Shown: in pieces, positions 14,170 through 61,514 of the stretch
Layout: every line of letters starts with the position of its first letter
Numbering within the stretch: position 1 is the stretch's first letter
DNA from: a virus
Strand: one strand, 5' to 3'
Virus record (IMG/VR): IMGVR_UViG_3300043411_001575
Span: 105,659 to 169,658 of that record
Length of the DNA: 64,000 nucleotides
Notes under the pieces: generated by a model
The model's database searches: none
What the model was told of the DNA's origin: nothing
Seen by the model: the letters and a program-made list of their open reading frames with translations, nothing else
Position numbers and translations under genes: made by a program

Positions 14170-14496
14170 ATGCAACATTTATTTGTAACATACGAAATAG
14201 CTAAGAAGCTAAAAGAATTAGGATTTGATAGACTTTGTTTCACATATTTTTTTGCAGGTACTAATGATTTATATAATGGTACTGTAAGAATGTACAACTT
14301 TAATAAAGGATTAGAAACTTCTGCTCCACTATGGCAACAAGCTATTGATTGGTTTTACGATAACCACGAGATTTTAATAGTTCAGATTCCATCTTACAGT
14401 ATGAAAGTTTGGGAAGTAAGTAAAAAAGGGAATAAAGATGTAATTTCAGGGCTATCAATTAACAAGGCAATCGAGGAAGCAATTAAATTAATTTAA
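14170..14496 (+). CDS. Hypothetical phage protein, homologous to the N-terminal module of 58522-59526
   Basis: FVTYEIAKKLKELGF...APLWQQAIDWF. Confidence 0.8.
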   Translation: MQHLFVTYEIAKKLKELGFDRLCFTYFFAGTNDLYNGTVRMYNFNKGLETSAPLWQQAIDWFYDNHEILIVQIPSYSMKVWEVSKKGNKDVISGLSINKAIEEAIKLI

Positions 14497-32111: not shown

Positions 32112-32678
32112 TTAGTACTTTCCTTCAAAAAGTAGCTCTGTAGTGAACTCATTCCTGAATCTAATGTAGTCCTGTGGGAAGGCAATAGAAAGTAAAGTAA
32201 ATTGAAGAGTACCCATGTTTAAAGCTTCAAAGCTTTTTCTTACAGATTGACTGCAAATATTATATTTGCCTCTTAATTTAATTTTTAATTTAAAACCGAA
32301 AGCTCGGTTCAGTAATTCCTTTATTCCATTTCTGAAATCATATTTTGTTCTAGCCTCATCACTCTCATTTATGAAATCAACAACGTTAGATTGAATAATA
32401 TCTTCGTCTACACTGCTTCTTATAACAATGAAGTCTGAGTTCTTGTAATAACTCTCAATTCTTGTTGATAGCCATTCAGGTTTATTACCTCTTGCATTAC
32501 TATCTACAATTAAAAATCTATTTTTTAATTTTACAACTCTTCCAATATGGGAGGCAAATGAATCACTATCTGCCTCCCTTATTACTGAAGCTACTACTCC
32601 TGTTCCACTAAAAAGAATAAAATCGCCATCTTTTATTTGACCACGAACTCTTTTGTATTTTTCAGAAATAGTTTCCAT
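32112..32678 (-). CDS. Permuted papain-like (NlpC/P60, YiiX/YebB-like) protein
   Basis: GDFILFSG, SHIG (His), YD, ICSQ (Cys), PQD in permuted order. Confidence 0.75.
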   Translation of the reverse strand: METISEKYKRVRGQIKDGDFILFSGTGVVASVIREADSDSFASHIGRVVKLKNRFLIVDSNARGNKPEWLSTRIESYYKNSDFIVIRSSVDEDIIQSNVVDFINESDEARTKYDFRNGIKELLNRAFGFKLKIKLRGKYNICSQSVRKSFEALNMGTLQFTLLSIAFPQDYIRFRNEFTTELLFEGKY

Positions 32679-42870: not shown

Positions 42871-42890
42871 TTTTTTTTAAATTATATTAT

Positions 42891-43478: not shown

Positions 43479-43484
43479 TTCTTA

Positions 43485-44596: not shown

Positions 44597-44967
44597 TAAA
44601 TCTTTTTTAAATCTTCAAATAATTTTTCAATTTCTTTTTCCTTAATCGCTTTCAAACCTTTTTCTGAAATAACAGAAATATTAATTTCATTCTTTTTTTC
44701 ATTTGGAATAGTAGCCATAAAGTAGTCGTAAAATGGATTAAAATCATCAGTTTTCATTGATGATAAAGTTTTTTTCCAATTGCTAATTAACTCTTCGTTT
44801 CCACCTTCTAATTTTGTTTTATCAGATAATATTTTTTTAGTTACTTCATCTAAAATTTTCTTTTCTTTATTTTTTCGTAATAGATAAATAGTACCAAAGT
44901 ACCCAACGGATATTACTGATGGAACTAAAACGGCAATCAATATGTTTTTAACTAAAGTCTTATTCAC
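44596..44967 (-). CDS. Membrane-anchored hypothetical protein
   Basis: N-terminal TM followed by basic residues. Confidence 0.72.
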   Translation of the reverse strand: MNKTLVKNILIAVLVPSVISVGYFGTIYLLRKNKEKKILDEVTKKILSDKTKLEGGNEELISNWKKTLSSMKTDDFNPFYDYFMATIPNEKKNEINISVISEKGLKAIKEKEIEKLFEDLKKI

Positions 44968-44977
44968 TATTTATATA

Positions 44978-45529: not shown

Positions 45530-45930
45530 TTTTTTATCCCTCCCCCGACTAAAGCATTTGGATTTTTCGCTACATTATAAACAAGAAGTCCTAAGCCTAA
45601 AATTAATATTCCTCCAACTGCAAAAGCAGCATATTTTCCAATTTTCATGATATTACCAAAAGAATCTGAAATACCTCCACCTAAGTCAGCTATTTCATTT
45701 AGAACACCTTCTGATATATTAATACCATCTTCAGAAAGAACCTTTCTTAATTGATAAGTATTAGCATCTTTACTTCCACGTTTTCTCCATGCAGCCATGA
45801 ATATACGAGCAGAATCTTGTCTTCCATATCTGCCATTTATTTTGTCGTACCAATTAATCCACTCAAAATCTTTTGATTTGAAATTTGGCATTGACAAAAG
45901 AAGCTTAACATTTTTTTCTTTAATGTTCAT
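45526..45930 (-). CDS. Membrane-anchored hypothetical protein
   Basis: C-terminal TM. Confidence 0.72.
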   Translation of the reverse strand: MNIKEKNVKLLLSMPNFKSKDFEWINWYDKINGRYGRQDSARIFMAAWRKRGSKDANTYQLRKVLSEDGINISEGVLNEIADLGGGISDSFGNIMKIGKYAAFAVGGILILGLGLLVYNVAKNPNALVGGGIKK

Positions 45931-45931
45931 C

Positions 45932-46723
45932 TTAAATAATTTTATAGTAAGGCTTTAAAAAACACTTACGTAATTTTAGAGTTCCGACAACTTCTTCGTA
46001 CTTGGCTTTTCTTTGAAGTATTTGCTCAAAGTGCGATTCATGAATTTCGTTGCCGACTAAATGTTGTCTTAAAATACTTTCCTGATTATTACTATTATCA
46101 TAGTCAGGTAAAATCAAATCTCCTGATGGATTAGGCTCTTCAGTTTTAACTTGTTCAGTTGATTGAACCTGAGTATTAACTAAATTTTCCTGACCAACAG
46201 AAGGTACATCTTGAGTAGAAGGAACAGTTCTAATTGGAGCTGTTGTTTTAAAATACTCTTGACTTAAAAGTTCGCTTCCTTGCAGGCTGCCTCCATCTGA
46301 TTTCTTCTCATAATTTTCAATATTTTGAAGTTCAAAAAGAGGCATACCTTTATTGGAATCGGTAAAGAATAAAGTATAATCTTGAGACCCTTCAATTTTT
46401 ATATTTTCGGGACTAGCTTTATCTGTTAGAATTCCTTGTTGCTTAAGAACATCAATGATTTTATCATTTTTAGTTCCAAAAGGAAATTCAATAAGTTTTT
46501 CAGAAGAAAAAATTTGATTTACATAAAATCCACTATCATTGCTTCCATGAATGTCATAAGTTACTAACCTACAACTTACATTTTCAACAACATTACCTCC
46601 ATCAGCAAGTTTTTTACTACCACTAACTTCTTTTTTTGAATTTTTCATAAATCGATTACCTGCGGGTTTAACAACCTGCTTGTCATTTATTTTTTTCTTC
46701 TTACTATCCTTATTTTCAGACAT
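45932..46723 (-). CDS. Short GG-linker modular protein
   Basis: LADGG and KSDGG linkers; C-terminal RKCFLKPYYK shared with 47071-52041. Confidence 0.75.
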   Translation of the reverse strand: MSENKDSKKKKINDKQVVKPAGNRFMKNSKKEVSGSKKLADGGNVVENVSCRLVTYDIHGSNDSGFYVNQIFSSEKLIEFPFGTKNDKIIDVLKQQGILTDKASPENIKIEGSQDYTLFFTDSNKGMPLFELQNIENYEKKSDGGSLQGSELLSQEYFKTTAPIRTVPSTQDVPSVGQENLVNTQVQSTEQVKTEEPNPSGDLILPDYDNSNNQESILRQHLVGNEIHESHFEQILQRKAKYEEVVGTLKLRKCFLKPYYKII

Positions 46724-46726
46724 AGA

Positions 46727-47026
46727 TTACTTACCTGCCTCTACGTTAGCAACTGTTTTAACTGCTTCTGCTGCTGCTTTAACTGCATCTGCGGTTTTAG
46801 CTGTAGCTTCTGCTGCCTTAACTTCAGGGTTAACTTGTTTAAGTGTAGTGTCAGCTTTTTTACCTCCTAAGAAGTAACCCGCTAAAGCACCTGCAACTAA
46901 TCCTGCACCTGCAAAAATTAACATGTTTTTCATGTCTTTTTTCTTCATAAAATAAGCGATTGCTGCTCCTGAAGCTGTACCGATACCTCCCCCGATAAGC
47001 ATTGTTTTCATGTCCATTTTTTTCAT
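46727..47026 (-). CDS. Small glycine-zipper membrane protein
   Basis: Paralog of 29572-29847. Confidence 0.75.
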   Translation of the reverse strand: MKKMDMKTMLIGGGIGTASGAAIAYFMKKKDMKNMLIFAGAGLVAGALAGYFLGGKKADTTLKQVNPEVKAAEATAKTADAVKAAAEAVKTVANVEAGK

Positions 47027-47070
47027 TTTTCTTTTTTTTTTAAATTATTAATTTGATTTATATACAGGGT

Positions 47071-50000
47071 TTAATCTGCCACTTTAAAGTATGGTCTTAA
47101 AAAGCACTTGCGCACCTTAAATCCAACCACGTTTTCTTCAAACTTAGGTTTACGACCTAAGTAAGAAGTCAATTTATCTACGCTCACTTCTTTTCCTGAA
47201 GAAAGAGATTTAAGTATTGAACCTTCGATTCCTACTAAATCAAATTCTCCAACAGAACCTCCATCTTCAAACTCTTTTACATCTTTAATATCAAGACCTT
47301 TTTCTTTAGCTACACTCTTTAATTTACTTTGTATTTTAGAAGTAGTTGGAGAAAACTTTTTATCTAATATTTTAACAACATCTCCTTTACGAGTTGCTAT
47401 TAATGTATAGTAGTTTCTAAGTAAAATTTCTTTATCATATTCATTGTAATGAGTAGATAAGTTTTTAGTTGATACTTCTTCGGTTGAAGTAAGGAAACTT
47501 TCGATTACATCTTCATTTTTACCAACTCGTCCACCTTTAGCAAATTTATAAGTAGCAGCCTGATTGAACATACTTAAAAATTCACTTGCTGCGGATGTTT
47601 TACCTCCACTATTTCTTTTTCCACCAAAAGAGTTTTTAAATTCATTTTTATATTTTGAATCTAAAACCTTATCCAAATGGTTTATGATGTTTTTCTTTAG
47701 TTCAGGTTTTGGGCATTCACAGTCTTCCAATATACTTTTGAATTTCTCAATGTTTTCTTTTGATGCTTCTTTATCAGAAATAGAAAGTAACTTATCCATT
47801 TTTTCATTTCCTTTCATATCACTTGATAATTCGGATAAACCATCAAACCAAGAGTCGGTATCCTCATTGAATGAAGAAGATATTTTACCACCTTTAGCAT
47901 AAGTACCTGCTCTATCAAAAATAACATAACCCTGTTCAAGCATAGTATCAATAAATGAATCAATCATGTACCTTTCATGGTAATACAATTCAGAATCATC
48001 ATGACCTTCATCAGTTAAATCTCCGTTATCATCATAATAGAATCCATCAGTAATAGCAGGAGCTTCAGTTAATCCAAAACCTTGTGCGCCAATATCATCA
48101 AAATACATAAGTTCAGAATTCCCTCTTACATCATCAAATAATTCTGACATGATATAATCATCATTTCTGTCATCATCACGCATTTCTAAAACTTCTGCTC
48201 TTCCATCTTCATCTAATGTAATTTTCAAATTACCATTAGGTGTAATATCAAGGCTAATGTATCTTCCTGAATGTAAATGTTTAGACAAATCTAATTTACC
48301 ACCTTCTTTAAGAATAGGATTTTTAGTTGTTCTAACTTCAAACCAACCTTCTTGATTCTTTAAAGCTTCAGCATTTTTATTTATAGCCTCATTCATTTCT
48401 TTAGTATCTCTACCATTCATAGTTAATGATGATTTTTTAAATACTCTACTTGATGGACTTTCTTTATATTCAATACCAAAAATAAATCTTTCACTAATAC
48501 CACCGCCATTTTTCATTTCTTTATTTCCTTTAACTATTTCTTGTAATAATTTTAAAATATTATCATAAGTTTTAGGCATCTCGTACCCATTCATTTCATC
48601 CCATATTTTTACTCTTACTTTATAATCAAAATTATTATCTTTTTCAAAATAGTAAATTAAATCTTTTAAATCCCATCGGTGTTTTTTAACTGCTTTAGTC
48701 ATATACTCAGCAATTTTTTCTAAATCTTCAGAACTTGTAATTTTTAAATTAGATTCTTCTCCAACTCCACCGCCTTTAGCAAAGTTTTCATTTACCATAA
48801 CACTAGCACTATCAAACGTACTAGCAAAATCTTCTGCTTCTATTTCATTATCAAAATATTTTTCAATGTTTTGAGTTTTATAATTATAAACATAGTAAGG
48901 CTTTTCTGATTCAACATCACCGCCATTTTTCATTTCGTTATTTAAAAGCTTATCGTAATCAACATACTCTTTGTATTTCAAAGTATCAATATTTTCTTTG
49001 AGTGTCTTTTTATAGTTCTCAGCAAACTTCTCAATCGCTTTTAACACAGCACCTTCTTCTTTAGTAGGGGTTCTAAAAGGAATCTTAACTGATTTCATAG
49101 CTAAGTATTGTTCCTTTGGGTCATTCATATTTGGATTTCTATAAATAGATTGACCACCATTACCTCCAAATATTTGAGGATGTAATTCAAGTGAAGATAA
49201 GTCTAAAGTAAGACTAACAGCTTGTGGGTATTGACCTCTTACATTATTAATAGCGTAATCAGAAGCGGCAATAACGATACCTAAATTTTTACCTTCTGAG
49301 AAGAAGTTTTTATATGTCCAAATGTTATGATAAAAATTAGGAACTACTTTATTTAAAATAGCTTCAATTTTTGATTTTAATTCTTGTTCTTTTTCAGTAA
49401 GTTCTCCGCCTTCTGCAAACTTCTTTGTTCTATTAACATCAGAACGATTTTCTCTGTTTTCATAGTAAACATTACCTTCAGCAGAAACACGTTTTCCACC
49501 ATGTAAAGCTTTCACTGATTTATCTCTTGAAATTGCTAACTTAGAACGTTTTAAACTTCCACCTTTTTTATATTGTCCACTATTAACATGTGCTTCTAAA
49601 ACTCGTTTTGTGTGGTCAGTTAAATCAGAATAATTTTTATCTTTTTGAACAATCCTAGAATAACCTAAATTATTTTCTAATCTATCATCATCTAAAAGTT
49701 CACTATGGTCTAATAAAAAGTGACTTCTTTGAGCCTCACTCCAATTATTCCAAATATCTTCAGAACTATGACCATCATATTTATTTTTTAAACTAATTTT
49801 TCCACCTTTTTTGAAAACACCTAATTGATGAATCATTCCATCATCTCCAACTTCAAGGTCAACACTTTTCATTTCACGAGCAGCGTTTTCTAATTTTTCT
49901 TCAACATCTTTATCGTAACCTCTATCAAAGAATCCTGCACCATGACCATTACGTGTAAGCCATATATCATGACCTAGTTGCTCATCAGATGAACCACTTG

Positions 50001-52041
50001 CTTCAATAGCATCGTAGTTATCTTCAATGAACATTTTAACGTCCTTGTACATTCTTTCTCTTGTAGCAGGAGCAATATCAGAAACAGAGTAATTAGCATC
50101 TAATGGCTCATCAGTATCCATATCAGTAGAAGACCATAAAGCGGCAATCATGTAGTTATCTAAAACTTCATTTATTCTATCTTCAGAAATCTCTCCACCT
50201 TTAGCGTATTCTTTTTTACTTTCAAAGTCAATAAAATCAAAATCAACATACATAGTTCTGCCATTAGAAGAAGTTACTTCATATCCATATGATAATACTT
50301 CTTCAATTTTAGCACTCATTCCTGATGGCTTTATCTTTATAGTATCTCCAACTTTTTTATCACCAACCCCACCGCCATTAGCGTATATCAACCTATCAAC
50401 CCTATCTTTTAGGGGTAAATCTATACCGTATTTTTCCACCTTTGACTTTATAGTTGGATTTTCACCTAACGGCTCGTAATAAGCTGACCATTCAGTATCC
50501 AATCCCATTTCAAGTATATGAAGTGCTAATCTCTTAACCTCATCCGACTTTCTTGTAGATATAATTTTGAATAACCTATACTTACCTGAACTTCTATCTA
50601 AAAGAGATTCTTCTTTTGCTTGAAAATCAAATCCGTTTTTATTTAAAAAATTCACTATTGCTGAATCTGTATATTCACCTTTTGAAGAAATATTAATACC
50701 TCTAAAATTATGAACACCTCCATTAAAACGAATTGCTTTTACAAGTTCATTCCAATTTGATATAGTTCTAATTTTACCAACTCCACCACCTTTAGCGTAT
50801 GTTTTTTTGCCATCTTCAGTATTTATATTATGTCCTCTTCTTTGTTTTGCTCTTAAATAAAATCCTCTATCATCTTGAAGATAACCCTTAAATCCGTTCC
50901 AAATATTTTGACCTACACCAACAGGTTCAAAAACTCCAAATAAACCATCTTGAGGAGTTGAATCATAACCATTATAACCATCTACAATAGATGCCTCCCC
51001 AACATATTTATTTCCCTTAAGAAAAACATTTTCAGGTAATGTTATTTTATTATAATTATCAATAACATCTTTATATTTAATGTTTTTAATTTTACCAACT
51101 CCACCACCTTTAGCGTAATCCTCATCTTCTTCATCTATAACGTATCCATTTTCTAAAGCATCTGAATAAAAATGAGGGTATTCTAAATATTCTTTGTAAT
51201 AGAAATCCATTACTTCTCCAATATTTTTTAATTTAAGAATTTCTTTTTTTATTTTTTTAGCATCTTTTTCCCATAAATCATCATAAGTTTTATCAAAAGA
51301 ATGTTTGTAGTCAGCTTGATTAAATCTCCAAGCTTTATTACCTCCACTTAGCCAATAAACAATTGTTTTTTCATCAGATTTTTTTAATTGTTTTGGAGTA
51401 ATAGCTATCTCACGAATTTTAGGATTTTTTTTGTATTTACTATTTATCATTATAGCTACTGCTTCACCAATATCATCAGTACTATATCTCCAACCTGTCG
51501 AATTATTAGAGTCAAAATCAACATCTAAAGTACCATCACTACGTCTTTCAATTAATAATGGATGTTCAAGAAACTCTTGCTTAATAGAACCACCTTTAGC
51601 GAACTCTTCTTCTTCATTTAATTCACGTTCTTGCCAAAAATTATCGTATTGTTTTTCAGAAACATTTGGAACATTATAACTTGAATCAGAACTAATAATT
51701 GTCATATCACCATTAGTAGACCAAGTAGCTGAAATCAAATCTTTACCTACTGATTTAGATTCAGTATTTAAGTATTTTTGAATTCTTTTTGTTGGTGCTT
51801 CGTAATTCCAATATTTATAAGGGATAGAAACGCAATATGAATCTTCAAACTTTTCTTTAGCTTCTTCAAGAGTTAATTCATCTGTAGAACCACCTTTAGC
51901 GAATCTCTTTGTTCTGTTGACATCAGAACGATTTTCACGATATTCATAATAAGTATTACCATCAGCAGATGTACGTTTACCTGCGTGTTGAGCCTTAATA
52001 TTTTTGTCTCTTGCTAAAGCTAATTTTGTTCTTCTGTTCAT
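47071..52041 (-). CDS. Giant modular protein/polyprotein A (1656 aa)
   Basis: About 16 [FYML]xxGG linkers separating unrelated modules. Confidence 0.85.
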   Translation of the reverse strand: MNRRTKLALARDKNIKAQHAGKRTSADGNTYYEYRENRSDVNRTKRFAKGGSTDELTLEEAKEKFEDSYCVSIPYKYWNYEAPTKRIQKYLNTESKSVGKDLISATWSTNGDMTIISSDSSYNVPNVSEKQYDNFWQERELNEEEEFAKGGSIKQEFLEHPLLIERRSDGTLDVDFDSNNSTGWRYSTDDIGEAVAIMINSKYKKNPKIREIAITPKQLKKSDEKTIVYWLSGGNKAWRFNQADYKHSFDKTYDDLWEKDAKKIKKEILKLKNIGEVMDFYYKEYLEYPHFYSDALENGYVIDEEDEDYAKGGGVGKIKNIKYKDVIDNYNKITLPENVFLKGNKYVGEASIVDGYNGYDSTPQDGLFGVFEPVGVGQNIWNGFKGYLQDDRGFYLRAKQRRGHNINTEDGKKTYAKGGGVGKIRTISNWNELVKAIRFNGGVHNFRGINISSKGEYTDSAIVNFLNKNGFDFQAKEESLLDRSSGKYRLFKIISTRKSDEVKRLALHILEMGLDTEWSAYYEPLGENPTIKSKVEKYGIDLPLKDRVDRLIYANGGGVGDKKVGDTIKIKPSGMSAKIEEVLSYGYEVTSSNGRTMYVDFDFIDFESKKEYAKGGEISEDRINEVLDNYMIAALWSSTDMDTDEPLDANYSVSDIAPATRERMYKDVKMFIEDNYDAIEASGSSDEQLGHDIWLTRNGHGAGFFDRGYDKDVEEKLENAAREMKSVDLEVGDDGMIHQLGVFKKGGKISLKNKYDGHSSEDIWNNWSEAQRSHFLLDHSELLDDDRLENNLGYSRIVQKDKNYSDLTDHTKRVLEAHVNSGQYKKGGSLKRSKLAISRDKSVKALHGGKRVSAEGNVYYENRENRSDVNRTKKFAEGGELTEKEQELKSKIEAILNKVVPNFYHNIWTYKNFFSEGKNLGIVIAASDYAINNVRGQYPQAVSLTLDLSSLELHPQIFGGNGGQSIYRNPNMNDPKEQYLAMKSVKIPFRTPTKEEGAVLKAIEKFAENYKKTLKENIDTLKYKEYVDYDKLLNNEMKNGGDVESEKPYYVYNYKTQNIEKYFDNEIEAEDFASTFDSASVMVNENFAKGGGVGEESNLKITSSEDLEKIAEYMTKAVKKHRWDLKDLIYYFEKDNNFDYKVRVKIWDEMNGYEMPKTYDNILKLLQEIVKGNKEMKNGGGISERFIFGIEYKESPSSRVFKKSSLTMNGRDTKEMNEAINKNAEALKNQEGWFEVRTTKNPILKEGGKLDLSKHLHSGRYISLDITPNGNLKITLDEDGRAEVLEMRDDDRNDDYIMSELFDDVRGNSELMYFDDIGAQGFGLTEAPAITDGFYYDDNGDLTDEGHDDSELYYHERYMIDSFIDTMLEQGYVIFDRAGTYAKGGKISSSFNEDTDSWFDGLSELSSDMKGNEKMDKLLSISDKEASKENIEKFKSILEDCECPKPELKKNIINHLDKVLDSKYKNEFKNSFGGKRNSGGKTSAASEFLSMFNQAATYKFAKGGRVGKNEDVIESFLTSTEEVSTKNLSTHYNEYDKEILLRNYYTLIATRKGDVVKILDKKFSPTTSKIQSKLKSVAKEKGLDIKDVKEFEDGGSVGEFDLVGIEGSILKSLSSGKEVSVDKLTSYLGRKPKFEENVVGFKVRKCFLRPYFKVAD

Positions 52042-52064
52042 CTTGAGTGTCTTTTTTTATTTAA

Positions 52065-52568
52065 TTAAATAGCTACGTTTAAACCTACTGATGGCATTTT
52101 ATAATCTACACCATTAGCTCCGCCTTTGAAGTAAATCATAATAGTACCTTTGCTATCTTTAGTTGCTTTTGTTATTCTACCTAAGAATTTATCTTTTGTA
52201 GTTTTGAATGCTTCTTTACCTGCTAAATCATACACTTTTAAACCATCTATTTTAGCGGAAATACTTTTTCCATTTGCGCCATCAGTATTCTCTGATAAAT
52301 AATCAATCAAAGTAACTAATTTAGTTGGCTTGTAAGCAACTCCTAAATTACCTGAACCTGTAGATGTTCGAGATGGTTTTACGTTAGAACTTGGACTAAT
52401 ATCACTAGGAATATCAGAGCCACTTTCAGGATTACTTTCCTTACTTGAATCACCTCCTGTATCAGTATTATCAGGCTTGTTCTTTCTGTAAGAATAAATT
52501 GCTATACCTGCTGCAATAGCTAATAAGCTTCCGCCTATCAATAATACTTTTTTTAATTGAGGTGTCAT
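52065..52568 (-). CDS. Membrane-anchored hypothetical protein
   Basis: N-terminal TM, Ser-rich linker. Confidence 0.75.
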   Translation of the reverse strand: MTPQLKKVLLIGGSLLAIAAGIAIYSYRKNKPDNTDTGGDSSKESNPESGSDIPSDISPSSNVKPSRTSTGSGNLGVAYKPTKLVTLIDYLSENTDGANGKSISAKIDGLKVYDLAGKEAFKTTKDKFLGRITKATKDSKGTIMIYFKGGANGVDYKMPSVGLNVAI

Positions 52569-52630
52569 TTGAAAATTTGCTTTAAAAAATATTTGTAAAA
52601 TTAATGAATATTAATCTTTTATTTTAAACA

Positions 52631-52671
52631 ATATCTGTAACACCTTTTGAGAATGTTACAGATATTTTTTT
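52631..52671. terminator. Intrinsic terminator hairpin
   Basis: ATATCTGTAACA...TGTTACAGATAT perfect 12 bp stem right after the stop codon of 52672-58491. Confidence 0.7.
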
Positions 52672-55600
52672 TTAGTATGCTCTTTTATTTTTAGGGTTTT
52701 TATCTGAATGGTCACGACGATTCTCCTGATAAATCATTTTTCTCGCTTTCACATCTCCTTCTTCATATGCTTTAATATCTTTTTGGGTCACAGGTTTGTA
52801 ATATTCTTTATCTGTTTTTTTAATTTTACGCATCATTCCTGTAGACTTATCTAAAATCTTACGATAACGGTATCCAACAAGTCGGGATTGTACTGACGTG
52901 TCTCTTGAACCATAAGGAACATCTCTTTCATATTGTGCGCCTCTTTGTTTGATAGCTCCACCTTTTTTGTAGTCATCCTCACCTGCCCAATCTGAATAAC
53001 CAACGTTAAAGGCAATAGGGTCATTCTTTCTTAACCAAAGTCCATAAGTATTTAAATGCTTATAAGGAACTCTTCCTCCGTATTCAGGATGGTCATGTTC
53101 AGGAACTCCTATTTCGTTTAGAAGCTCAACGTATTTTGCTTTTGTTTTTTTTAAGCTTCCACCTTTAGCAAATTCTTCATCATCGAATTCAGGAACTCCT
53201 GCTGCTTCTAATAATTCAACATCACCTTTATCAATATATTTTGATAATGATTGAAGTTCAATCAATTCACCTTGACTAATTCGTTCTTCACGAAGTTCTC
53301 CTCTCAAATATTCTAATCGTTCTTTAATTTCTTCCGTATTATCAAGTCCACCACCATCAGCGTATTCATTAAAATATTTTATCAATTCGTTTTCTTCTTC
53401 ATCCGTTAAAGAAAGTTGTCCACTTGAATAAAGATTATTTAATTCTTGTTTTGATGGCTTATAGCCATACTTTTTTTCATATTTTCCAATAATATTTTTA
53501 ATTAAAATACTTTCACCAACTCCACCACCATCAGCGTATTCATCATTTATTTTTAATTTTTCTCCTATAAAATACTCTTTACCATTATACACTACAACAA
53601 AATTACCTTTTTTTAATTCTTTTCGTATAAATGGCTTTGTTCTTTTTATAAATTCTTCTACTTCTTCTCCCGTTTCAAATGTCATTCCACCCTGCGAACT
53701 ATAAATATCTTTATATCTAAATTTTTCTTCTTCCACTTCATCATCATCTTCAAATTCAGGAACTCCTGCTGCTTCTAATAATTCCACATCACCTTTATCA
53801 ATATATTTTGATAATGATTGAAGTTCAATCAATTCACCTTGACTAATTCGCTCTGCACGAAGTTCTTTTCTAAGATACTCTAATCTTTTTTTAATTTTTT
53901 TCGTATCACTAACTCCTCCACCTTTAGCAAATTCTTCATCATTTTCGTATTCCCAAAAACCAAAGTCAGAACCATTTCCTTCGTGTGAACCAAAAGAAGT
54001 TCCTTCAGGAGCAATGTTATTTAATAAATCGAAAATATCTTCATTTAAAATGTATGTAGCGGTTTCTTCAGACTCACCAACGAAATCACCATCTTCATCT
54101 TTTTCTAAAGCATTAACTTCTTCCTGAAGATTATTTACTTTTTCTTCAATACCAAGTTCTACTTTTACAGATTGTAAAAAATCCATGAAAGACTCTATAA
54201 GATGTTCTGACTTCAATGTACCACTTGATAGAGATTTGCCTATCATACTTGATGACAATTCACCGCCATTAGCCATTTTACCTTTACTACTTCTTGCTTC
54301 ATATTCTTCTTGGTATCTAGGCAAGTTATGTGGTTCATTAGGAAATAACTCTTTCAAACGTGCTTTGTTTTTTTCACTTAACGGAACACCTTTTGGGTTA
54401 TAAAAATCAAGGTCTGTTTCAGGGATATATTTTAATCCTGAATTATCTAACATCCTTACAACAACTAATCCTTTTGCTATTGGATTTCCTGTTTGGTCTG
54501 TGTATCCAAAAATTTGACCTTTATCACCATAATATTTATTTTTAGCAATACCTATTACGAAGTCATCTTCTTGGAACTTTCTTAACCCACCACCTTTAGC
54601 GTAATTATTAAACCAATTATCAATACTTTTTTTACCATTTTCAAATGATGATGCTGTACCCATACTTACACCATCCATTACAATATCCCAAGCTAATTTA
54701 CCCTCTCCCTTATCACCTTTTGGTATAGTATTTCTTACAAGATGAAATGTGCTACCTTTAATTTCTTTTTCATAGTAAATAGGAACAGCCCTTTTACCCC
54801 AATGTCCGTAATGAGTATATGCAATTGGTTCACCAACCCCACCACCATTAGCGTATTTAGGATTTAATAATCCTATAATCTGCTTGACCTTTTCTAAATA
54901 TGTATTTCTTCTTTCTTTACTGTTTGAAATTATTACCCTTTTATTATTATGAGTATCGGTGAATAACTCCTCAACTAACCATTTTGAAGTCCTAATTTTT
55001 TTATTTTCATCTATTTTTGATTTTACTCCGTTTAATGTCGTTCTCATATCGAAAGGAAGAATAATAATATCTCCAACTTTAATATCACCAACCCCACCGC
55101 CATTAGCAAAACTTTCTACAAACTCATATTGGTTTCCTTCGTAATGTAAAGTATAACCAACAAATCCATTGTTTTTATACCATAGTTCTTTTGTTTTTCC
55201 ACCATCATCTGAAACTATTATTTCTTTACCTTTTTTTGAAATTAGTTTATATCCACTCGGTTTTGATGTGTTAGGTTGACCACCCATAAGTTCTTCACCA
55301 ACCCCACCACCATTAGACATTTTCTTTTTATTCTTGTCCTTGCTTCTTTCGAATTCATCAACAATACTCATTTTTGATGGAGGAAATATTCTTTTAATTT
55401 TATCTTTACCTATGAATGTTAATCTTCCATCTCCATTATTATCTCTTCCAATAAATGTATATAATTGACCATCACTTGAATTTTTATACAATTTGTTTAT
55501 TTCAAAATCATCATAATCTAAACTACCACCTTTTTCTTTTTTATTTGTATTATTTCTTTCGAATTCATCAACAATCTCTTCAACGAAGTCATCACCTTTA

Positions 55601-58491
55601 TGACCTCCAAATGTTTTGAATGTAGTAGTTAATATTTCAACAGGTGAACCTAACTTAATTTTTTTCTTTTTAGAACCATCATCATAAAGTTCATAGTAAT
55701 TAACGTCAGAATCCTGTTGCGCATCAAATGTAACTGAAGTACCATCTTTAAATTCAAGATTAACTGAGTGTTTACCATCAACAACTTCTTCATAAAACTT
55801 CATTAAAACATCTTCTTTAGATTCTCCTTCTAAGAATATTGGGTCTCCGTAGTTACCACGAACATCACCACCCATGTGAGGATGAGCTATCAAAACAAAA
55901 CGTACATCGTATACGCTGTAAATTCTAAAGTTCCAATTAAATAATCCAAGATAACTTGAGTTATAAGTATTGTCAGAAGCTACTTGTTCAAAATCTTCTC
56001 CTTCAGGACTTTGTAATCCCCATCCACTATCATCTACTTTCAATGAAGTTGCTTTTTCAAAAGCTTCGGTAGAACCATACATAGCTGATTTTCTTACTTT
56101 ATCAAGAAACTCTTTGTTTGATTTTTCATCATTAGCATCAAAGCTTCCATGATTATAAGAATTCCAATAATTAACAGCAGATTTTAAATGAGGAACAATG
56201 TTTTCATTAATCCATTCTCTTCTTTCTGCATATCCCATTTCTTTCACAGGAGTATTTGGGTCACTCTTTTGTTTTTCGTTTTCTACATCATATCTCTTTA
56301 CAAGAGTTATTTTTTTATCTTTAACTAATTGTTGACCTTCCTGATGAGAGATTTTCTTTACAAGTTTTTTTGATTTATCATAAAGTAAATAATAATCAAT
56401 ATCCTTTTGAGAAGGAGTTAAAACAGAAACAATGTATCCATCTTTTTGTTTTTCACCATCTAATGAATACTTAACTTTAAATGTAGCCTTATATTCACCA
56501 ATAGTAACAGAACCGCCTTTTGCGAACTTACGAGAAAAACGAACAGGTTCTTTATCACTATGGTCTGCACGATTTTCGAAACCAAGCATTTTACGAGCTG
56601 TTACATCACCATCTTTATAAGCTTTAATTTCTTTTTGAGTTGGAGTAGCATAATATTTTTTATCCTTTTTTGTAACTACAAGTAATCTTCCTGTCTTAGG
56701 GTCACGTATTCTTTCATAACGGAATCCAACAGGTTTAGCTTTACGCTTTCTATCTCCTGAGCCATATCCATCAATCTTATATTGTGCGCCTTTTTGTTTC
56801 ACAGCACCACCTTTAGCTAATTTTATTGGAGCAACACTACCATTAACTTTTTTAGAAAAATCATCTGCTAATTCTTTTTCATCTTCTCCAAAAAGTCTTT
56901 CTCTCATTTGACCTTCTTCACTTACATAAAAAACTATGTATTTTGTTTTCTTCAAATTACCTCCTTTTTTAAAGTGTGAGCGCATTACTAAGTTTAAAGG
57001 TATATTATAACCTTCAGGGTCAATAACAGGCTCAGATGGTAAATTTCCTTCTTCATCAGGCTCACCTTCTTCATCTGTTACATATTCAATATCTAACCAA
57101 TCAGAAGTTTCAGGATTGTCGCTTCCGAAAGAATCACGAACTCGTGCAGCATCACCACTATCACTCAACATAATTTCATATCCACCTGAATTTGAAACTG
57201 TGTAATGACCATGAACAACAAATTCTTCATCTTCATCACCTTCAGTATACTCTTCTCTTATTTTATCATCAAATTCTTCTTCAGAATAAATTTGGCTGTT
57301 ATTTGGTATTATACCTAAATCCATTAAATACTTTGTAAGTCTATTCAAATCTTCATCTGCTTTATACTTTAAGAATCCATCTTGAATCAAGCTATTCATT
57401 TGTTCGGAATCTTCTATACTATAAACAACTTCATCTTTTGGGTTTCTAACATCAGCAGAATACTCTCCTCTTTCATCTAAATTAACGACTAAATAAAAGT
57501 CAGTATTTTTTTCAACCCCACCGCCTTTAGCCATGTATTTACTTTCAAGATATTTTTGTGCTTCTTTATATTTAGCCTTTTTAGAAGCATCTACTTTATG
57601 CCCATAAAACATATTGTATATACCTAATTCACCTGCGTATAATTCTAAAGCACCTTGAACATTTTTATTAGACTTATTGTACAAATCATCTAAATGAGAA
57701 TCATTTAATCCACCACCTTTAGCATATTTTTCTTTGTATAAAAATCTTTGGTTTAAAGTTGAAGCACTGCCATCCGACCATTCTACAGAAACATCTTTCC
57801 CATCAAAATCAATTACTTTACCCTCTTTCTTTATTGGTGCAGCATAAGGATTTTTATTGTAATTTTCTAATATGTAAACATCATCACCTTTTCTATATTC
57901 AAAATTATATATACCCCAATAATCACCAATGTCTAATTTATGAACTAAAATAGTATCTAAATTATCAAGTTGAACCTTATATTTAGAGCCTATTATATCT
58001 ATAACAGTCCCAATTGTTCCAACTTTTGCATAATATGGACTTTTATCATTAAAATCCTTGCTCTCAGTTTCTTGAAGAGCCTCTAATTTAGTATTAATAC
58101 GAACATTTTCAATCCCACCTCCATTAGCATACTCTCTTACATTTTCATTTATGTAATCAACTACTTCATCAAACATACCTTCTTGCATATTTGCATAACG
58201 GAAGAATTGTCTTTTTTGAGACTCATCCATATCGTTGTAAAGTTCTTTTACTTGAGTTCTATTTCCATTAATAAGACTATCATTGATGTAATCAAAATAT
58301 TCTTCAATAGAAGTAAAATCTAGTGGAGTCCAAAGGTCTCCGCCTTTACCAAATCTCTTTGTTCTGTTGACATCAGAGCGATTTTCACGATATTCATAAT
58401 AAGTATTACCATCAGCAGATGTACGTTTACCTGCGTGTTGAGCCTTAATATTTTTGTCTCTTGCTAAAGCTAATTTTGTTCTTCTGTTCAT
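52672..58491 (-). CDS. Giant modular protein/polyprotein B (1939 aa)
   Basis: About 18 xxxGG linkers; internally duplicated modules; first 47 aa identical to polyprotein A. Confidence 0.85.
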   Translation of the reverse strand: MNRRTKLALARDKNIKAQHAGKRTSADGNTYYEYRENRSDVNRTKRFGKGGDLWTPLDFTSIEEYFDYINDSLINGNRTQVKELYNDMDESQKRQFFRYANMQEGMFDEVVDYINENVREYANGGGIENVRINTKLEALQETESKDFNDKSPYYAKVGTIGTVIDIIGSKYKVQLDNLDTILVHKLDIGDYWGIYNFEYRKGDDVYILENYNKNPYAAPIKKEGKVIDFDGKDVSVEWSDGSASTLNQRFLYKEKYAKGGGLNDSHLDDLYNKSNKNVQGALELYAGELGIYNMFYGHKVDASKKAKYKEAQKYLESKYMAKGGGVEKNTDFYLVVNLDERGEYSADVRNPKDEVVYSIEDSEQMNSLIQDGFLKYKADEDLNRLTKYLMDLGIIPNNSQIYSEEEFDDKIREEYTEGDEDEEFVVHGHYTVSNSGGYEIMLSDSGDAARVRDSFGSDNPETSDWLDIEYVTDEEGEPDEEGNLPSEPVIDPEGYNIPLNLVMRSHFKKGGNLKKTKYIVFYVSEEGQMRERLFGEDEKELADDFSKKVNGSVAPIKLAKGGAVKQKGAQYKIDGYGSGDRKRKAKPVGFRYERIRDPKTGRLLVVTKKDKKYYATPTQKEIKAYKDGDVTARKMLGFENRADHSDKEPVRFSRKFAKGGSVTIGEYKATFKVKYSLDGEKQKDGYIVSVLTPSQKDIDYYLLYDKSKKLVKKISHQEGQQLVKDKKITLVKRYDVENEKQKSDPNTPVKEMGYAERREWINENIVPHLKSAVNYWNSYNHGSFDANDEKSNKEFLDKVRKSAMYGSTEAFEKATSLKVDDSGWGLQSPEGEDFEQVASDNTYNSSYLGLFNWNFRIYSVYDVRFVLIAHPHMGGDVRGNYGDPIFLEGESKEDVLMKFYEEVVDGKHSVNLEFKDGTSVTFDAQQDSDVNYYELYDDGSKKKKIKLGSPVEILTTTFKTFGGHKGDDFVEEIVDEFERNNTNKKEKGGSLDYDDFEINKLYKNSSDGQLYTFIGRDNNGDGRLTFIGKDKIKRIFPPSKMSIVDEFERSKDKNKKKMSNGGGVGEELMGGQPNTSKPSGYKLISKKGKEIIVSDDGGKTKELWYKNNGFVGYTLHYEGNQYEFVESFANGGGVGDIKVGDIIILPFDMRTTLNGVKSKIDENKKIRTSKWLVEELFTDTHNNKRVIISNSKERRNTYLEKVKQIIGLLNPKYANGGGVGEPIAYTHYGHWGKRAVPIYYEKEIKGSTFHLVRNTIPKGDKGEGKLAWDIVMDGVSMGTASSFENGKKSIDNWFNNYAKGGGLRKFQEDDFVIGIAKNKYYGDKGQIFGYTDQTGNPIAKGLVVVRMLDNSGLKYIPETDLDFYNPKGVPLSEKNKARLKELFPNEPHNLPRYQEEYEARSSKGKMANGGELSSSMIGKSLSSGTLKSEHLIESFMDFLQSVKVELGIEEKVNNLQEEVNALEKDEDGDFVGESEETATYILNEDIFDLLNNIAPEGTSFGSHEGNGSDFGFWEYENDEEFAKGGGVSDTKKIKKRLEYLRKELRAERISQGELIELQSLSKYIDKGDVELLEAAGVPEFEDDDEVEEEKFRYKDIYSSQGGMTFETGEEVEEFIKRTKPFIRKELKKGNFVVVYNGKEYFIGEKLKINDEYADGGGVGESILIKNIIGKYEKKYGYKPSKQELNNLYSSGQLSLTDEEENELIKYFNEYADGGGLDNTEEIKERLEYLRGELREERISQGELIELQSLSKYIDKGDVELLEAAGVPEFDDEEFAKGGSLKKTKAKYVELLNEIGVPEHDHPEYGGRVPYKHLNTYGLWLRKNDPIAFNVGYSDWAGEDDYKKGGAIKQRGAQYERDVPYGSRDTSVQSRLVGYRYRKILDKSTGMMRKIKKTDKEYYKPVTQKDIKAYEEGDVKARKMIYQENRRDHSDKNPKNKRAY

Positions 58492-58521
58492 ATTGAAGTG
58501 TTTTAAATATTTTGATTTTTT

Positions 58522-59526
58522 TTAATTCCAAGATTTTGATTTATCAAGACTATGCTCTAAATATGCCCATCTGCTATCGCCTGCACGATTTATAGCTCCG
58601 TCCATATACCACCCAACCATCATTTGTTGAGAATTTAATTGGTCTTTCAATTCCTTAGACTTAAGGAACTCTTCAGCATCATTCATTTCCGCATAACCTT
58701 CTTCAAGGTTTTTTAAATTCAATGGAATACCTAATCCGTATGATACCAAGTCAGTATAACCAACTTCATCTGCATTTATTCCCGCTGAATCAGCACATGA
58801 CTCAATATGTGCCTTATCAATAAATTCAATAGAAGGATAAATACTCAATGAAATGATAAATGGTTTTTCTTCAAACCTATCATCTCCTGTTGCTTCATAA
58901 AAGTTTTCTATTGTAGCTACAAGTACAAGTGGAATTTCTTTTTCATCATCTCCAACTATTACTTGACCAAAATCTCTTTTGAAATACATTTGGTCTCCAT
59001 AGTCTGCGATTTCAACGAACTCGTTTTCTCCTGACATATTTTTATTTTTTGAATTATCTTTTAAATCTCCGCCTTTTTTGAATTCTTTTTCATCAATCAT
59101 TTTTAAAGCTCTTATGAGTGACTTTTCTCTTGCTTCATAAAGAGTATCAAATCCATCCTTTAAAATCTCAAAGAAATCATCTGAAATATTTTCATTATAT
59201 TTTGATACCATTACTTTATAAAATCCTATTTTTTCACCTCTATAAACAGGATATGGGTGTAAACCTATTGCATATTTTGACTCAATAAAATCAAAAGCTT
59301 GTTGCCATAGTGGAGCTGTACAAATAGCTTGTTTACCCGCTGATGGATGCCTCTCTAATCTAAAATTATTATTATCATATCTCTCTCTAAAATAATTAAG
59401 TTCTGTAGATGTAAAAGGCTCTTTTTCCTCTTCAAAAGATAACTGATAATAAGCTAAACAAGGCTCATTAAAACCTAAATCCTTTAGACTTTTAGCTATT
59501 TCAAACGAAACGAACTGCTCTTTCAT
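58522..59526 (-). CDS. Two-module GG-linker protein
   Basis: N-terminal module homologous to 14170-14496, EFKKGG linker, acidic second module. Confidence 0.78.
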   Translation of the reverse strand: MKEQFVSFEIAKSLKDLGFNEPCLAYYQLSFEEEKEPFTSTELNYFRERYDNNNFRLERHPSAGKQAICTAPLWQQAFDFIESKYAIGLHPYPVYRGEKIGFYKVMVSKYNENISDDFFEILKDGFDTLYEAREKSLIRALKMIDEKEFKKGGDLKDNSKNKNMSGENEFVEIADYGDQMYFKRDFGQVIVGDDEKEIPLVLVATIENFYEATGDDRFEEKPFIISLSIYPSIEFIDKAHIESCADSAGINADEVGYTDLVSYGLGIPLNLKNLEEGYAEMNDAEEFLKSKELKDQLNSQQMMVGWYMDGAINRAGDSRWAYLEHSLDKSKSWN

Positions 59527-60644: not shown

Positions 60645-61514
60645 TTATGCCGCCTTAGCGTACTCTTTTAAATCTCCATCATTAAACTTCTTAATGAAGT
60701 CTTTTATGATTAAGTATCTTTTATGATTACCTTCTGTTGCAGCACCTTTGAATACGTATAAGAACGCTTGGTGAGCTTCAATTTCAGAGTAACCCAAAGA
60801 TAAATAAATATTCAAGGCATTAATATCCGCTCCTGTTTCATAACCGATAGCATTTCCATCTTCAGGGTTTTTCCACTTATGAGAATACTCATGAAGTAGA
60901 ATAACCATTCTCATCGGAATAGTATATTTTAAGAAGTCTTCTTTGCTTATTTCAACTGTACCTGTAGCGTGACCGATACGAGCAGGAGTATTTAATTTTC
61001 TACCTGTTTTTCTATCCTTTATTTTATCCCAATAATCGAAAGTAAATTCACCACAATCAGAACGATAAACAGAAGGAACTTCCTTACCATTAACAAATTG
61101 AGAAGCCGATAAATGAGATGCATTTTCGCAGAAAAACTGAACGAACTTAATGAAGTTTCTATCCCTTTCAGAAAGCCAAACAGGTTTAGTTTTCAGAGGA
61201 GCTGCTTCAAATTTTTCTATTGTAAAAGTTGGGTCTTCAGTACCTTTAAATTTACCATTTTTTTGATTAAAAATATCAATATGTAATTTAGATGGAACTT
61301 GCGGAAACTTTAATTCAAAAGTTCTCTCTCCATTCACTATTCCCTTACGCTTAACGTATCCTGTTTTAATAGGAACTTGCTTTTGAACGCCATCAATCTT
61401 CATCATACCATCAACAATATCGTAAGCTTGAAGAACAATACATTCAGGTTTTTTAGTTTTAACCTTTACAACTAGTGTAAAAGGAACATTATATGTTGGG
61501 AATGTGAAATACAT
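60645..61514 (-). CDS. Zincin-type metallopeptidase
   Basis: ILLHEYSH (HExxH) with downstream ETGAD (third zinc ligand E). Confidence 0.75.
   Translation of the reverse strand: MYFTFPTYNVPFTLVVKVKTKKPECIVLQAYDIVDGMMKIDGVQKQVPIKTGYVKRKGIVNGERTFELKFPQVPSKLHIDIFNQKNGKFKGTEDPTFTIEKFEAAPLKTKPVWLSERDRNFIKFVQFFCENASHLSASQFVNGKEVPSVYRSDCGEFTFDYWDKIKDRKTGRKLNTPARIGHATGTVEISKEDFLKYTIPMRMVILLHEYSHKWKNPEDGNAIGYETGADINALNIYLSLGYSEIEAHQAFLYVFKGAATEGNHKRYLIIKDFIKKFNDGDLKEYAKAA

What the first reader, a model, noticed from the sequence alone, without database searches (positions are those of the whole stretch)
45932..59526. Giant polyproteins punctuated by [FYML]xxGG linkers
Seen: the 1656 aa and 1939 aa proteins contain about 16 and 18 copies of a motif such as FAKGG, YAKGG, YANGG, YADGG, MKNGG or FKKGG. 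These cut them into mostly unrelated modules of roughly 40-330 aa; two neighbours (45932, 58522) carry the same linker. Established: adenovirus protease cleaves (M/I/L)xGG-x, and ASFV polyproteins are cut after GG-x by a Ulp1-like protease. Inference: these are virion-packaged polyproteins processed into dozens of small effectors delivered at infection. The linker DNA (recurrent CCACCTTTAGC on the plus strand) could also give microhomology for module shuffling, a protein-level cassette system parallel to the DNA array.
Basis: partly seen in the sequence, partly recalled or inferred. Interest (0 to 1): 0.8.

Follow-up and report, generated by a model that had tools for sequence, protein, structure and literature searches.

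The report
Mosaic phage giant proteins, conserved joint
Two giant proteins of an uncultured 170-kb flavobacterial phage are strings of small unrelated protein modules joined by one short conserved peptide that is probably a cutting signal, so the phage may make dozens of small proteins from two genes, but no cutting has been shown.

Summary
The 1656-aa and 1939-aa proteins carry 16 and 17 copies of [FYML]xxGG (2-3 expected by shuffling), and the motif is almost confined to these genes in the 170-kb genome. Over 100 metagenomic relatives use the same joint, [Y/F/M]-A-[K/D]-G-G-x-[V/I/L]. Homology blocks end at the joints, module order is heavily shuffled, some modules exist as free genes without the joint, and a fold shows confident domains separated by low-confidence joints. 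The joint is conserved far above its flanks, so it is a selected peptide signal, not a plain spacer.

These are best read as polyvalent proteins (Iyer et al. 2017) with a previously undescribed joint code, most likely a processing site. Cleavage, the enzyme and virion packaging remain unproven. No Ulp1/adenain-type protease was found, and the hydrophobic residue is spaced differently from adenovirus sites. The ORF at 60645-61514 is a conserved jelly-roll plus M48-like zincin, the best but weakly linked candidate. The ORF at 32112-32678 is papain-like but dispensable.

This scan had already noted the same [FY]AxGG joint in giant tape measure proteins of at least eight other uncultured phages. 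I confirmed the motif in lambda gpH's cleaved region and beside the inferred T5 pb2 cut.

The parts
52672..58491 (-). P0002, a 1939-aa giant of 18 modules joined by 17 joints. It starts with the shared 51-aa basic module and ends with a second copy of a basic 94-98-aa module.
47071..52041 (-). P0001, a 1656-aa giant of 17 modules joined by 16 joints. It has the same 51-aa N-terminal module, an internal copy of it, and a conserved C-terminal tail.
45932..46723 (-). P0003, a 263-aa protein with one clear joint (LADGG). Its last ~47 residues are homologous to the C-terminal end of P0001, including the KCFL[RK]PY[YF]K tail.
58522..59526 (-). P0004, a 334-aa two-module protein. Residues 6-141 match the 142-position stand-alone family phrog_25117, followed by the joint FKKGG at 149-153 and a second module.
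14170..14496 (+). Free 108-aa gene homologous to the N-terminal module of P0004 (34% identity, E = 8e-9). It shows that one module type occurs both free and fused within this genome.
49801..50193 (-). Module at P0001 residues 617-747 (phrog_1915 type). It is bounded by the joints at 612-616 and 743-747, is found as a free 123-130-aa protein in many phages, and is confidently folded (pLDDT 91-98).
51889..52041 (-). The 51-aa basic N-terminal module of P0001. It is 98% identical to the start of P0002 (58339-58491), and an internal copy lies at 49405-49557. In relatives this module is the first module in 28 of 45 occurrences, so it is a candidate address or DNA-binding tag.
47074..47118 (-). C-terminal tail of P0001 (KCFLRPYFK type), shared with P0003, several relatives and small neighbouring ORFs in related loci. 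It is a candidate docking tag.
60645..61514 (-). P0126, 289 aa: an N-terminal jelly-roll plus an M48-like zincin with invariant H208, E209, H212, E226 and D230. It is the best available candidate for a processing protease, three genes upstream of the giants.
32112..32678 (-). P0125, 188 aa, probably a permuted papain-like (YiiX/NlpC-P60-type) enzyme with His44 before Cys142. It lies beside the lysis genes. I considered it as the protease and judged it unlikely.

Best explanation
P0001 and P0002, and in small form P0003 and P0004, belong to a large, almost unannotated class of mosaic polyvalent proteins of Bacteroidota-type phages. Each is a string of small, independently folding modules (median 83 aa). 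Some modules also exist as free small phage genes. Recombination concatenates and reshuffles them.

Every junction carries one conserved seven-residue joint, [Y/F/M]-A-[K/D]-G-G-x-[V/I/L]. It is flexible and under protein-level purifying selection. I read the joint as a proteolytic processing signal. The giants are made late, beside lysis, tail-fibre and membrane-protein genes. A conserved basic N-terminal module and a conserved C-terminal tail probably address them to the particle. They are then cut at the joints into dozens of small proteins that act early in the next infection.

Shown: the joint, its specificity, its conservation, its coincidence with domain borders, the module shuffling and the free homologues.

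Inferred: cleavage, the scissile bond, the enzyme and packaging. The best enzyme candidate is the neighbouring jelly-roll/M48-like zincin P0126. A host enzyme or the unknown activity that matures tape measure proteins is also possible.
For: - Enrichment and confinement of the motif.
- Same joint in relatives: nearly all of 76 giant relatives and most of 43 shorter ones, typically 8-31 copies per giant against under 1 expected. Distant giants on other viral contigs use it too.
- Unbiased profile of 1595 GG sites: F/Y/M at -3 in 68% (background 12%), A at -2 in 44%, V/I/L at +3. I, V and W are almost never at -3.
- Conservation: across 1544 joints inside alignments of 25-70% identity, the two Gly are 85-86% identical against about 42% for flanks, the pattern is kept in 72%, and swaps stay within F/Y/M/L.
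- Borders: block ends fall within 5 aa of a joint in 53% against 13% at random.
- Shuffling: 1120 modules in 416 clusters, with the downstream neighbour conserved in only 14% of homologous pairs.
- Free homologues without the joint: P0090, P0093, P0107, P0091, phrog_1915, phrog_25117 and the window gene 14170-14496.
- Fold of P0001 residues 600-890: the domain has pLDDT above 90, and the low-confidence stretches overlap all four joints.
- Link to polyvalent proteins: relatives carry ArdA and LPD11.
- Tape measure precedent: the motif occurs twice in the glycine-rich region of lambda gpH that is removed on maturation. A 92-residue T5 pb2C puts the mapped cut directly before A-E-G-G.
- Candidate enzyme: a conserved zincin with invariant HExxH...E lies three genes upstream and recurs in related phages.
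Against: - No experiment or proteome shows cleavage or packaging, and no cultured relative was found.
- No GG-specific cysteine protease, prohead protease or Prp was found in the held genome. The genome is only 82% complete.
- The zincin family is far wider than the giants. Only 7 of 63 loci have a linker-rich ORF within 10 kb, and 13 of 49 whole records have P0001-like modules. One 100% complete genome has the zincin but essentially no linker-rich protein.
- In G045 the zincin lies about 13 kb from the giants.
- The modules contain no embedded peptidase motif.
- Lys and Asp alternate at one joint position, which is unusual for a tightly read protease subsite.
- The window proteins themselves match no known conflict domain.
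Confidence: 0.45

Rival explanations
1. Uncut beads on a string. The joint is a conserved hinge or docking peptide and not a cutting site. The giants stay whole, and the small module size plus flexible Gly-Gly joints lets the chain be packed and threaded through a narrow channel. Alternatively the aromatic-Ala-Lys part binds a common partner such as a chaperone, a packaging receptor or DNA.
For: - Module sizes are tightly limited (5th-95th percentile 40-209 aa).
- The joints are predicted flexible.
- No dedicated protease tracks the giants.
- Polyvalent proteins such as ArdC and TraC1 are transferred full length, according to PMC5512222.
- Some relatives attach a membrane helix or a short basic tail through the same joint.
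Against: - A pure hinge does not need a specific aromatic/Met, Ala and V/I/L kept at 72% across 45%-identical proteins.
- Free homologues of the modules lack the motif entirely.
- The same motif lies in the regions of lambda gpH and T5 pb2 that are cleaved.
Confidence: 0.28
2. Recombination scar. The joint persists because new module fusions form only by recombination at the short shared DNA sequence that encodes it, so each junction inherits the motif without the peptide itself having a function.
For: - The 11-mer CCACCTTTAGC covers 12 of 33 joints.
- Ala is GCT in 21 of 23 joints against 55% in the background.
- Joints with the same pentapeptide are slightly more alike in DNA than codon usage predicts, 0.90 against 0.84, in all ten lineages tested.
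- Module order is extensively shuffled exactly at the joints.
Against: - The excess DNA identity is under one base per 15.
- The first Gly uses GGT and GGC in nearly equal numbers, and the second uses GGT and GGA.
- F, Y and M have different codons but replace each other.
- A conserved V/I/L two residues after GG lies outside the shared DNA word.
- The motif stays intact between proteins of 25-70% identity while the flanks decay.
- This rival may still explain how modules move, alongside a peptide function.
Confidence: 0.1
3. Tail-lumen proteins. The giants are divergent tape measure-like proteins or their cargo extensions, and the joint is the tape measure-type [FY]AxGG element. They would sit in the tail and leave ahead of the DNA.
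For: - The motif is shared with lambda gpH and resembles the sequence at the T5 pb2 cut.
- Other agents of this scan report the same joint fencing cassettes in giant tape measure proteins (unchecked notes).
- The genes lie upstream of an SLT lysin and tail-fibre genes.
- No other ORF over 512 aa exists in the held genome that could be the tape measure protein.
Against: - No Tape_meas_lam_C or PhageMin_Tail match anywhere in the genome, and no Pfam hit in the giants.
- The giants have no hydrophobic segment.
- The modelled part is a globular domain, not a long coiled coil.
- There are two giants with the same N-terminus, plus small proteins of the same build.
- No sheath or other tail core gene was recognised, and the genome is incomplete.
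Confidence: 0.12

Closest known systems
Polyvalent proteins of phages and conjugative elements (Iyer, Burroughs, Anand, de Souza, Aravind 2017, PMC5512222)
   Same: - Very large phage proteins made of many unrelated small domains, with extensive mosaicism.
- Relatives carry ArdA and the polyvalent-protein domain LPD11.
- Processing by a zincin-like metallopeptidase is the published prediction, and a zincin gene sits beside the giants here.
   Different: - The paper does not mention a conserved linker or glycine motif (0 occurrences of either word).
- The peptidase here is a separate neighbouring gene, not an embedded domain.
- The window's own modules match none of the described domains.
- Modules are unusually small and numerous (17-18 per protein).
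Maturation of tape measure proteins: lambda gpH to gpH* plus gpHC, and T5 pb2 to pb2* plus pb2C (PMC12617516; bioRxiv 10.1101/2022.09.20.507954)
   Same: - Lambda gpH has FATGG at 733 and YATGG at 778, in the glycine-rich region where about 14 kDa is removed.
- A 92-residue pb2C places the T5 cut directly before A-E-G-G.
   Different: - For lambda, the exact site and the enzyme are unknown.
- The T5 residue before the cut is Arg, not F/Y/M.
- The giants here lack tape measure domains, hydrophobic segments and coiled-coil character.
- They carry 16-17 joints rather than one or two.
Adenovirus protease (adenain) and ASFV pS273R polyprotein processing at Gly-Gly (from established knowledge)
   Same: A Gly-Gly core preceded by a hydrophobic residue, punctuating virion precursor proteins.
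   Different: - Adenain sites are (M/I/L)-x-G-G, with the hydrophobic residue two before GG. Here it is three before GG, with Ala and Lys/Asp between.
- No clan CE protease (Peptidase_C5, C48) was found in the held genome.
T4 internal proteins and phiKZ-type head proteins cut by the prohead protease
   Same: Proteins carried in the particle, addressed by a terminal tag, cut at a short recurring motif and injected to act early.
   Different: - The motif is different (L/I-x-E in T4).
- No S77 or S78 prohead protease was recognised (the S77 control rang nowhere).
- Packaging of the giants is not shown.

Membership tests
Polyvalent proteins (Iyer et al. 2017) | Many unrelated domains in one polypeptide of a phage or conjugative element, with mosaic architectures among relatives | tested here: met
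   17 and 18 modules in the two giants; 416 module clusters in 77 giants; downstream neighbour kept in only 14% of homologous pairs; folded domain between flexible joints.
Polyvalent proteins (Iyer et al. 2017) | Presence of known conflict or LPD domains (ArdA/ArdC, methylases, nucleases, LPD families) | tested here: inconclusive
   The window proteins have no Pfam hit. Relatives carry ArdA (P0047) and LPD11 (P0065). A Pfam tally over 24 giants gave only LPD11, DUF7659, DUF5824, DUF6496 and a marginal IF4E hit, once each.
Polyvalent proteins (Iyer et al. 2017) | Embedded zincin-like or other peptidase domain for self-processing | tested here: not met
   HExxH occurs in only 1 of 1120 modules. 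A separate zincin gene lies three genes upstream instead.
Polyvalent proteins (Iyer et al. 2017) | Delivered into the recipient cell with the DNA | not testable with these tools
   The only indication is the position in a late-type, minus-strand block with lysin, tail-fibre and lysis genes.
Adenain / ASFV pS273R-type Gly-Gly polyprotein processing | Clan CE cysteine protease (Peptidase_C5 or C48) encoded by the virus | tested here: not met
   No match at E <= 0.1 in the held genome. The genome is 82% complete, so absence is not proven.
Adenain / ASFV pS273R-type Gly-Gly polyprotein processing | Site consensus with the hydrophobic residue two positions before Gly-Gly | tested here: not met
   The hydrophobic residue is three positions before GG (1.34 bits at -3). 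Position -2 is mostly Ala.
Tape measure proteins | Tape measure sequence domains (Tape_meas_lam_C, PhageMin_Tail) | tested here: not met
   No match in the genome at E <= 0.1 and no Pfam hit in the giants.
Tape measure proteins | Hydrophobic segments and a long helical or coiled-coil body | tested here: not met
   No hydrophobic segment in either giant. The modelled 291 residues form a compact domain plus flexible joints. Only one stretch was modelled.
Tape measure proteins | [FY]AxGG element near the matured C-terminal region | tested here: met
   The motif is shared with lambda gpH at residues 733 and 778. On its own it does not define the family.
M48-like zincin metallopeptidases (for P0126, window 60645-61514) | HExxH with a downstream acidic third ligand, conserved across the family | tested here: met
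   H208, E209, H212, E226 and D230 are invariant in 40 sequences of 48-82% identity.
M48-like zincin metallopeptidases (for P0126, window 60645-61514) | Fold similarity to M48 peptidases | tested here: inconclusive
   The best matches of residues 134-280 are BepA (6sar, Z 8.0, rmsd 3.7, 119 aligned), ZMPSTE24 (Z 6.7), 3c37 (Z 6.7) and Ste24p (Z 6.2). These Z values are middling. Foldseek gave nothing at E <= 0.001, and there was no Pfam hit at E <= 1.
Permuted papain-like YiiX/NlpC-P60 enzymes (for P0125, window 32112-32678) | Conserved His before the catalytic Cys, with sequence similarity to a solved member | tested here: inconclusive
   phmmer hit to 3kw0 'cysteine peptidase' at E = 0.003 over residues 6-63 only. 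His44 and Cys142 are present. It was not folded.

The most novel reading that the evidence does not exclude
[F/Y/M]-A-x-G-G-x-[V/I/L] is a general phage maturation code. The same still-unidentified activity that cuts lambda gpH and T5 pb2 would also dice cargo polyproteins in many uncultured phages. These 33-joint proteins would then be the richest natural substrate set for finding that activity and its scissile bond. The enzyme that cuts gpH has been unknown for some 40 years.
Probability: 0.15. Interest if true: 0.85.

Novelty: new variant of a known kind. Interest (0 to 1): 0.62.

Why it matters
If the joints are cut, a phage can encode dozens of small early-acting proteins in two genes, deliver them ready-made, and exchange them as cassettes. 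That would be a protein-level counterpart of the methyltransferase cassette array other agents of this scan reported in the same genome. The modules are almost all unknown to Pfam, so the joints give a simple rule for parsing a large body of viral dark matter into domain-sized units for structural and functional study. The shared motif with lambda gpH and T5 pb2 offers a concrete, testable lead on how tape measure proteins are matured. If the joints are not cut, the class still shows a conserved peptide at every domain junction that needs another explanation.

Tried and rejected
I used the search for related loci, the genome search and the fetch from genomes instead.
- The search for related loci with whole P0001 found nothing in viral contigs.
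- tblastn of P0002, of a window structural ORF, of the G045 giant and of its 963-aa neighbour found no cultured phage. megablast of 17 kb also found nothing.
- Complex prediction of the zincin with P0001 residues 300-430 gave no verdict (score 0.00). It counts neither way.
- The protein atlas gave no usable hit for two modules.
- Foldseek against PDB gave nothing significant for the zincin or for the folded module.
- Family searches of the genome found no Ulp1, adenain, S78, S77, Prp, tape measure, sheath or Terminase_6N match. The S77 control rang nowhere, and the genome is 82% complete.
- I looked for a different punctuation motif in the large ORFs downstream of distant zincin genes. Those ORFs are Gly/Ser-rich repeat proteins of tail-fibre type, not polyproteins.
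- A small presence/absence profile over four complete genomes singled out no protease. The one ORF that tracks the giants (window 10976-11737) has no Pfam match.
- The motif is not enriched next to protein termini, so that test did not separate cleavage from linkage.
- The first literature search for the motif was swamped by unrelated words. The narrower one found nothing relevant.
- The Prp analogy (cut after Phe before Ala) came from memory and gained no support.
Full report
**Setting.** The window is the last 64 kb of a 169,658-base IMG/VR virus record, estimated 82% complete. Other agents of this scan describe it as a large flavobacterial phage. From about 29.9 kb to the window's end, all genes lie on the minus strand. 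In order of transcription they include:
- several unknown ORFs;
- a 289-aa ORF (60645-61514), then two small ORFs;
- P0004 (334 aa), P0002 (1939 aa), a 167-aa membrane protein, P0001 (1656 aa), a 99-aa glycine-zipper protein, and P0003 (263 aa);
- a run of single-pass membrane proteins;
- an SLT lytic transglycosylase;
- tail-fibre-like proteins of 866 and 208 aa;
- a 188-aa ORF, an amidase and a two-helix membrane protein.

P0001 has 16 and P0002 has 17 matches to [FYML]xxGG, against 1.9 and 3.2 in shuffles. The tighter pattern gives the same counts against 0.4 and 0.7 expected. Elsewhere in the 589 ORFs of the genome there are only about 11 isolated matches. P0003 and P0004 each carry one clear copy. 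The plus-strand word CCACCTTTAGC occurs 12 times, all inside the two genes.

**The motif marks a protein class.** A search of 5.8 billion proteins found 76 relatives of 910-2890 aa. They cover only 5-50% of P0001 and nearly all carry 6-31 copies of the motif. A second search found 43 shorter relatives, most with several copies. Giants on other viral contigs, including complete genomes of 55-85 kb, use the same motif.

Over 891 sites the consensus is Y/F/M, then A (65%), K or D, G, G, any residue, then V/I/L. An unbiased profile of all 1595 GG sites gives 1.34 bits at -3, 1.07 at -2, 0.54 at -1 and 0.85 at +3, with F/Y/M at -3 in 68% of sites against a 12% background. Some relatives double the unit in tandem.

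**The motif sits at domain borders.**
- Ends of BLAST blocks between giants fall within 5 residues of a motif in 53% of cases, against 13% for random placement.
- Cutting at the motif gives 1120 modules with a median of 83 aa, in 416 clusters of which 263 are singletons. A homologous pair keeps the same downstream neighbour in only 14% of cases.
- P0001 residues 618-736 match phrog_1915, a 141-position stand-alone family. tblastn finds it as free hypothetical genes in phages of Escherichia, Mycobacterium, Pseudomonas and other hosts.
- Free metagenomic versions of 123-130 aa and 93 aa start with Met and have no motif.
- The first module of P0004 matches phrog_25117 and also a free 108-aa gene in the same window.
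- An AlphaFold model of P0001 residues 600-890 has one domain at pLDDT 91-98. Its low-confidence stretches at model residues 7-15, 144-151, 227-250 and 266-281 overlap the four joints at 13-17, 144-148, 225-229 and 276-280.

**The joint is selected as a peptide.** I examined 1544 joints lying inside alignments of 25-70% identity (mean 45%). The two glycines are 85-86% identical against about 42% for the flanks. The pattern is kept in 72% of cases, and changes at the first position are almost all among F, Y, M and L, which have different codons.

At the DNA level, Ala is GCT in 21 of 23 joints and the first Gly favours GGT and GGC while avoiding GGA. The same skew at the first Gly appears in the other phages examined. 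Joints encoding the same pentapeptide are only a little more alike than codon usage predicts, 0.90 against 0.84, in all ten lineages tested. So short DNA microhomology exists and may help modules move, but it does not explain the motif.

**Shared end elements.** The 51-aa basic first module of P0001 and P0002 is 98% identical between them and recurs inside P0001. In relatives it is the first module in 28 of 45 occurrences. Its core also occurs in a 255-aa protein beside a lysine-rich stretch on small viral contigs. A C-terminal tail of the KCFLRPYYK type ends P0001, P0003, several relatives and small neighbouring ORFs in related loci. These look like address or docking tags, but that is inference.

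**What the modules are.** The window proteins match no Pfam family. Among relatives I found ArdA, LPD11, DUF5824, DUF6496 and DUF7659, and a P-loop kinase/ATPase-like module in a linker-rich protein of G045. This places the class among the polyvalent proteins of Iyer et al. 2017 (PMC5512222). That paper predicts processing by zincin-like peptidases but never mentions a conserved linker. Full-text searches for the motif found nothing relevant.

**Who might cut.** No Ulp1-like, adenain-like, S78, S77 or Prp family member was found in the held genome.

The ORF at 60645-61514 (P0126) has over 423 homologues of similar length. H208, E209, H212, E226 and D230 are invariant in a 40-sequence alignment. 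Its model is confident (pLDDT 92.6), with an N-terminal jelly-roll and a C-terminal domain. The best structural matches of that domain are four M48 zincins, led by BepA at Z 8.0.

The link to the giants is weak. Of 63 viral loci with this gene, 7 have a linker-rich ORF within 10 kb. Of 49 whole records, 13 have P0001-like modules. One complete genome has the zincin with essentially no linker-rich protein, and in others the two are far apart.

The ORF at 32112-32678 (P0125) resembles a permuted papain-like enzyme. It occurs in only 3 of 49 records and is missing from near-complete genomes whose giants use the same joint.

**Tape measure connection.** Notes from other agents of this scan report the same [FY]AxGG joint fencing cassettes in giant tape measure proteins of at least eight other uncultured phages. 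I checked the underlying claim:
- Lambda gpH has FATGG at 733 and YATGG at 778. This is the glycine-rich region from which about 14 kDa is removed, but PMC12617516 states that the exact site and the enzyme are unknown.
- For T5, the cut was mapped by mass spectrometry. PMC12617516 gives pb2C as 92 residues. That places the cut after Arg1127, directly before A-E-G-G.

The giants here are not recognisable tape measure proteins. They have no tape measure domain, no hydrophobic segment and a globular modelled part. The held genome has no other ORF above 512 aa, and its head and tail core genes were not recognised, so the location of the giants in the particle stays open.

**Verdict.** The architecture, the joint, its conservation and the module shuffling are shown. 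I judge cleavage at the joints the most likely meaning, at about even odds. An uncut hinge or docking peptide comes next, and a recombination scar is least likely as the sole cause. The adenovirus/ASFV analogy fails on spacing and on the protease. The finding is a new variant of a known kind: polyvalent proteins with an explicit, widely shared joint code.

Noticed in passing
L012 483-9466; L013 115-7405; L014 2585-9993; L015 1973-6019; window about 41101-45930: Upstream of the zincin gene, related phages carry arrays of 8-12 paralogous small proteins with a shared N-terminal motif (LLDE.FSN type) and a C-terminal membrane anchor ending in basic residues. The window has a comparable run of single-pass membrane proteins downstream of the giants.
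   Followed up: partly
G034 (L096-L097), record positions 51961-67977: A 5338-aa open frame with a 4618-aa open frame on the opposite strand and several long frames in other phases. This suggests a very long, simple repeat-coding gene in an 84-kb phage with inverted terminal repeats.
   Followed up: no
L008 3716-4483 and L009 9776-10543: The core of the giants' N-terminal basic module (73% identical over 37 residues) sits inside a 255-aa protein, next to a lysine/alanine-rich histone-like stretch, on ~13-kb viral contigs without any joint motif.
   Followed up: partly
window 47071-58491 (joint codons) and loci L012-L015, L085, L106: The first Gly codon of the joint avoids GGA and is enriched for GGC (10 of 33 in the window against 4% background). 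Most other lineages examined also avoid GGA at this codon. This may avoid the Shine-Dalgarno-like word AAAGGAGG.
   Followed up: partly
relatives P0050, P0088, P0092, P0095, P0096, P0100, P0112, P0113: Many shorter relatives end, just after a last joint, with a short tail containing S/T-x-H-K/R followed by two to three residues. This is a second conserved C-terminal ending, distinct from the KCFLRPYYK tail.
   Followed up: no
relatives P0094, P0110, P0115 and P0105: Some linker-rich proteins begin with a glycine-zipper-like membrane helix, which a joint connects to the first module. The 99-aa ORF at window 46727-47026, between P0003 and P0001, has weak glycine-zipper and YtxH matches.
   Followed up: partly
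G045 (L106) 2355-5876: A 1173-aa linker-rich protein of a complete 68.8-kb phage carries a P-loop ATPase / polynucleotide kinase-like module. It is followed by a MoxR-type AAA ATPase gene and by a 963-aa unknown ORF that directly precedes a 1387-aa linker-rich giant. G034 and G005 show the same large-ORF-then-giant pairing.
   Followed up: partly
window 10976-11737 (+): A 253-aa ORF next to the cassette-array recombinase has homologues in the three complete giant-bearing genomes (G045, G034, G005) but not in G040, which lacks giants. It has no Pfam match.
   Followed up: partly
window 27358-27939 (+) and 40182-40847 (-): A RusA-type Holliday junction resolvase and an SLT lytic transglycosylase. 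The latter is probably a virion-associated lysin within the late block.
   Followed up: no
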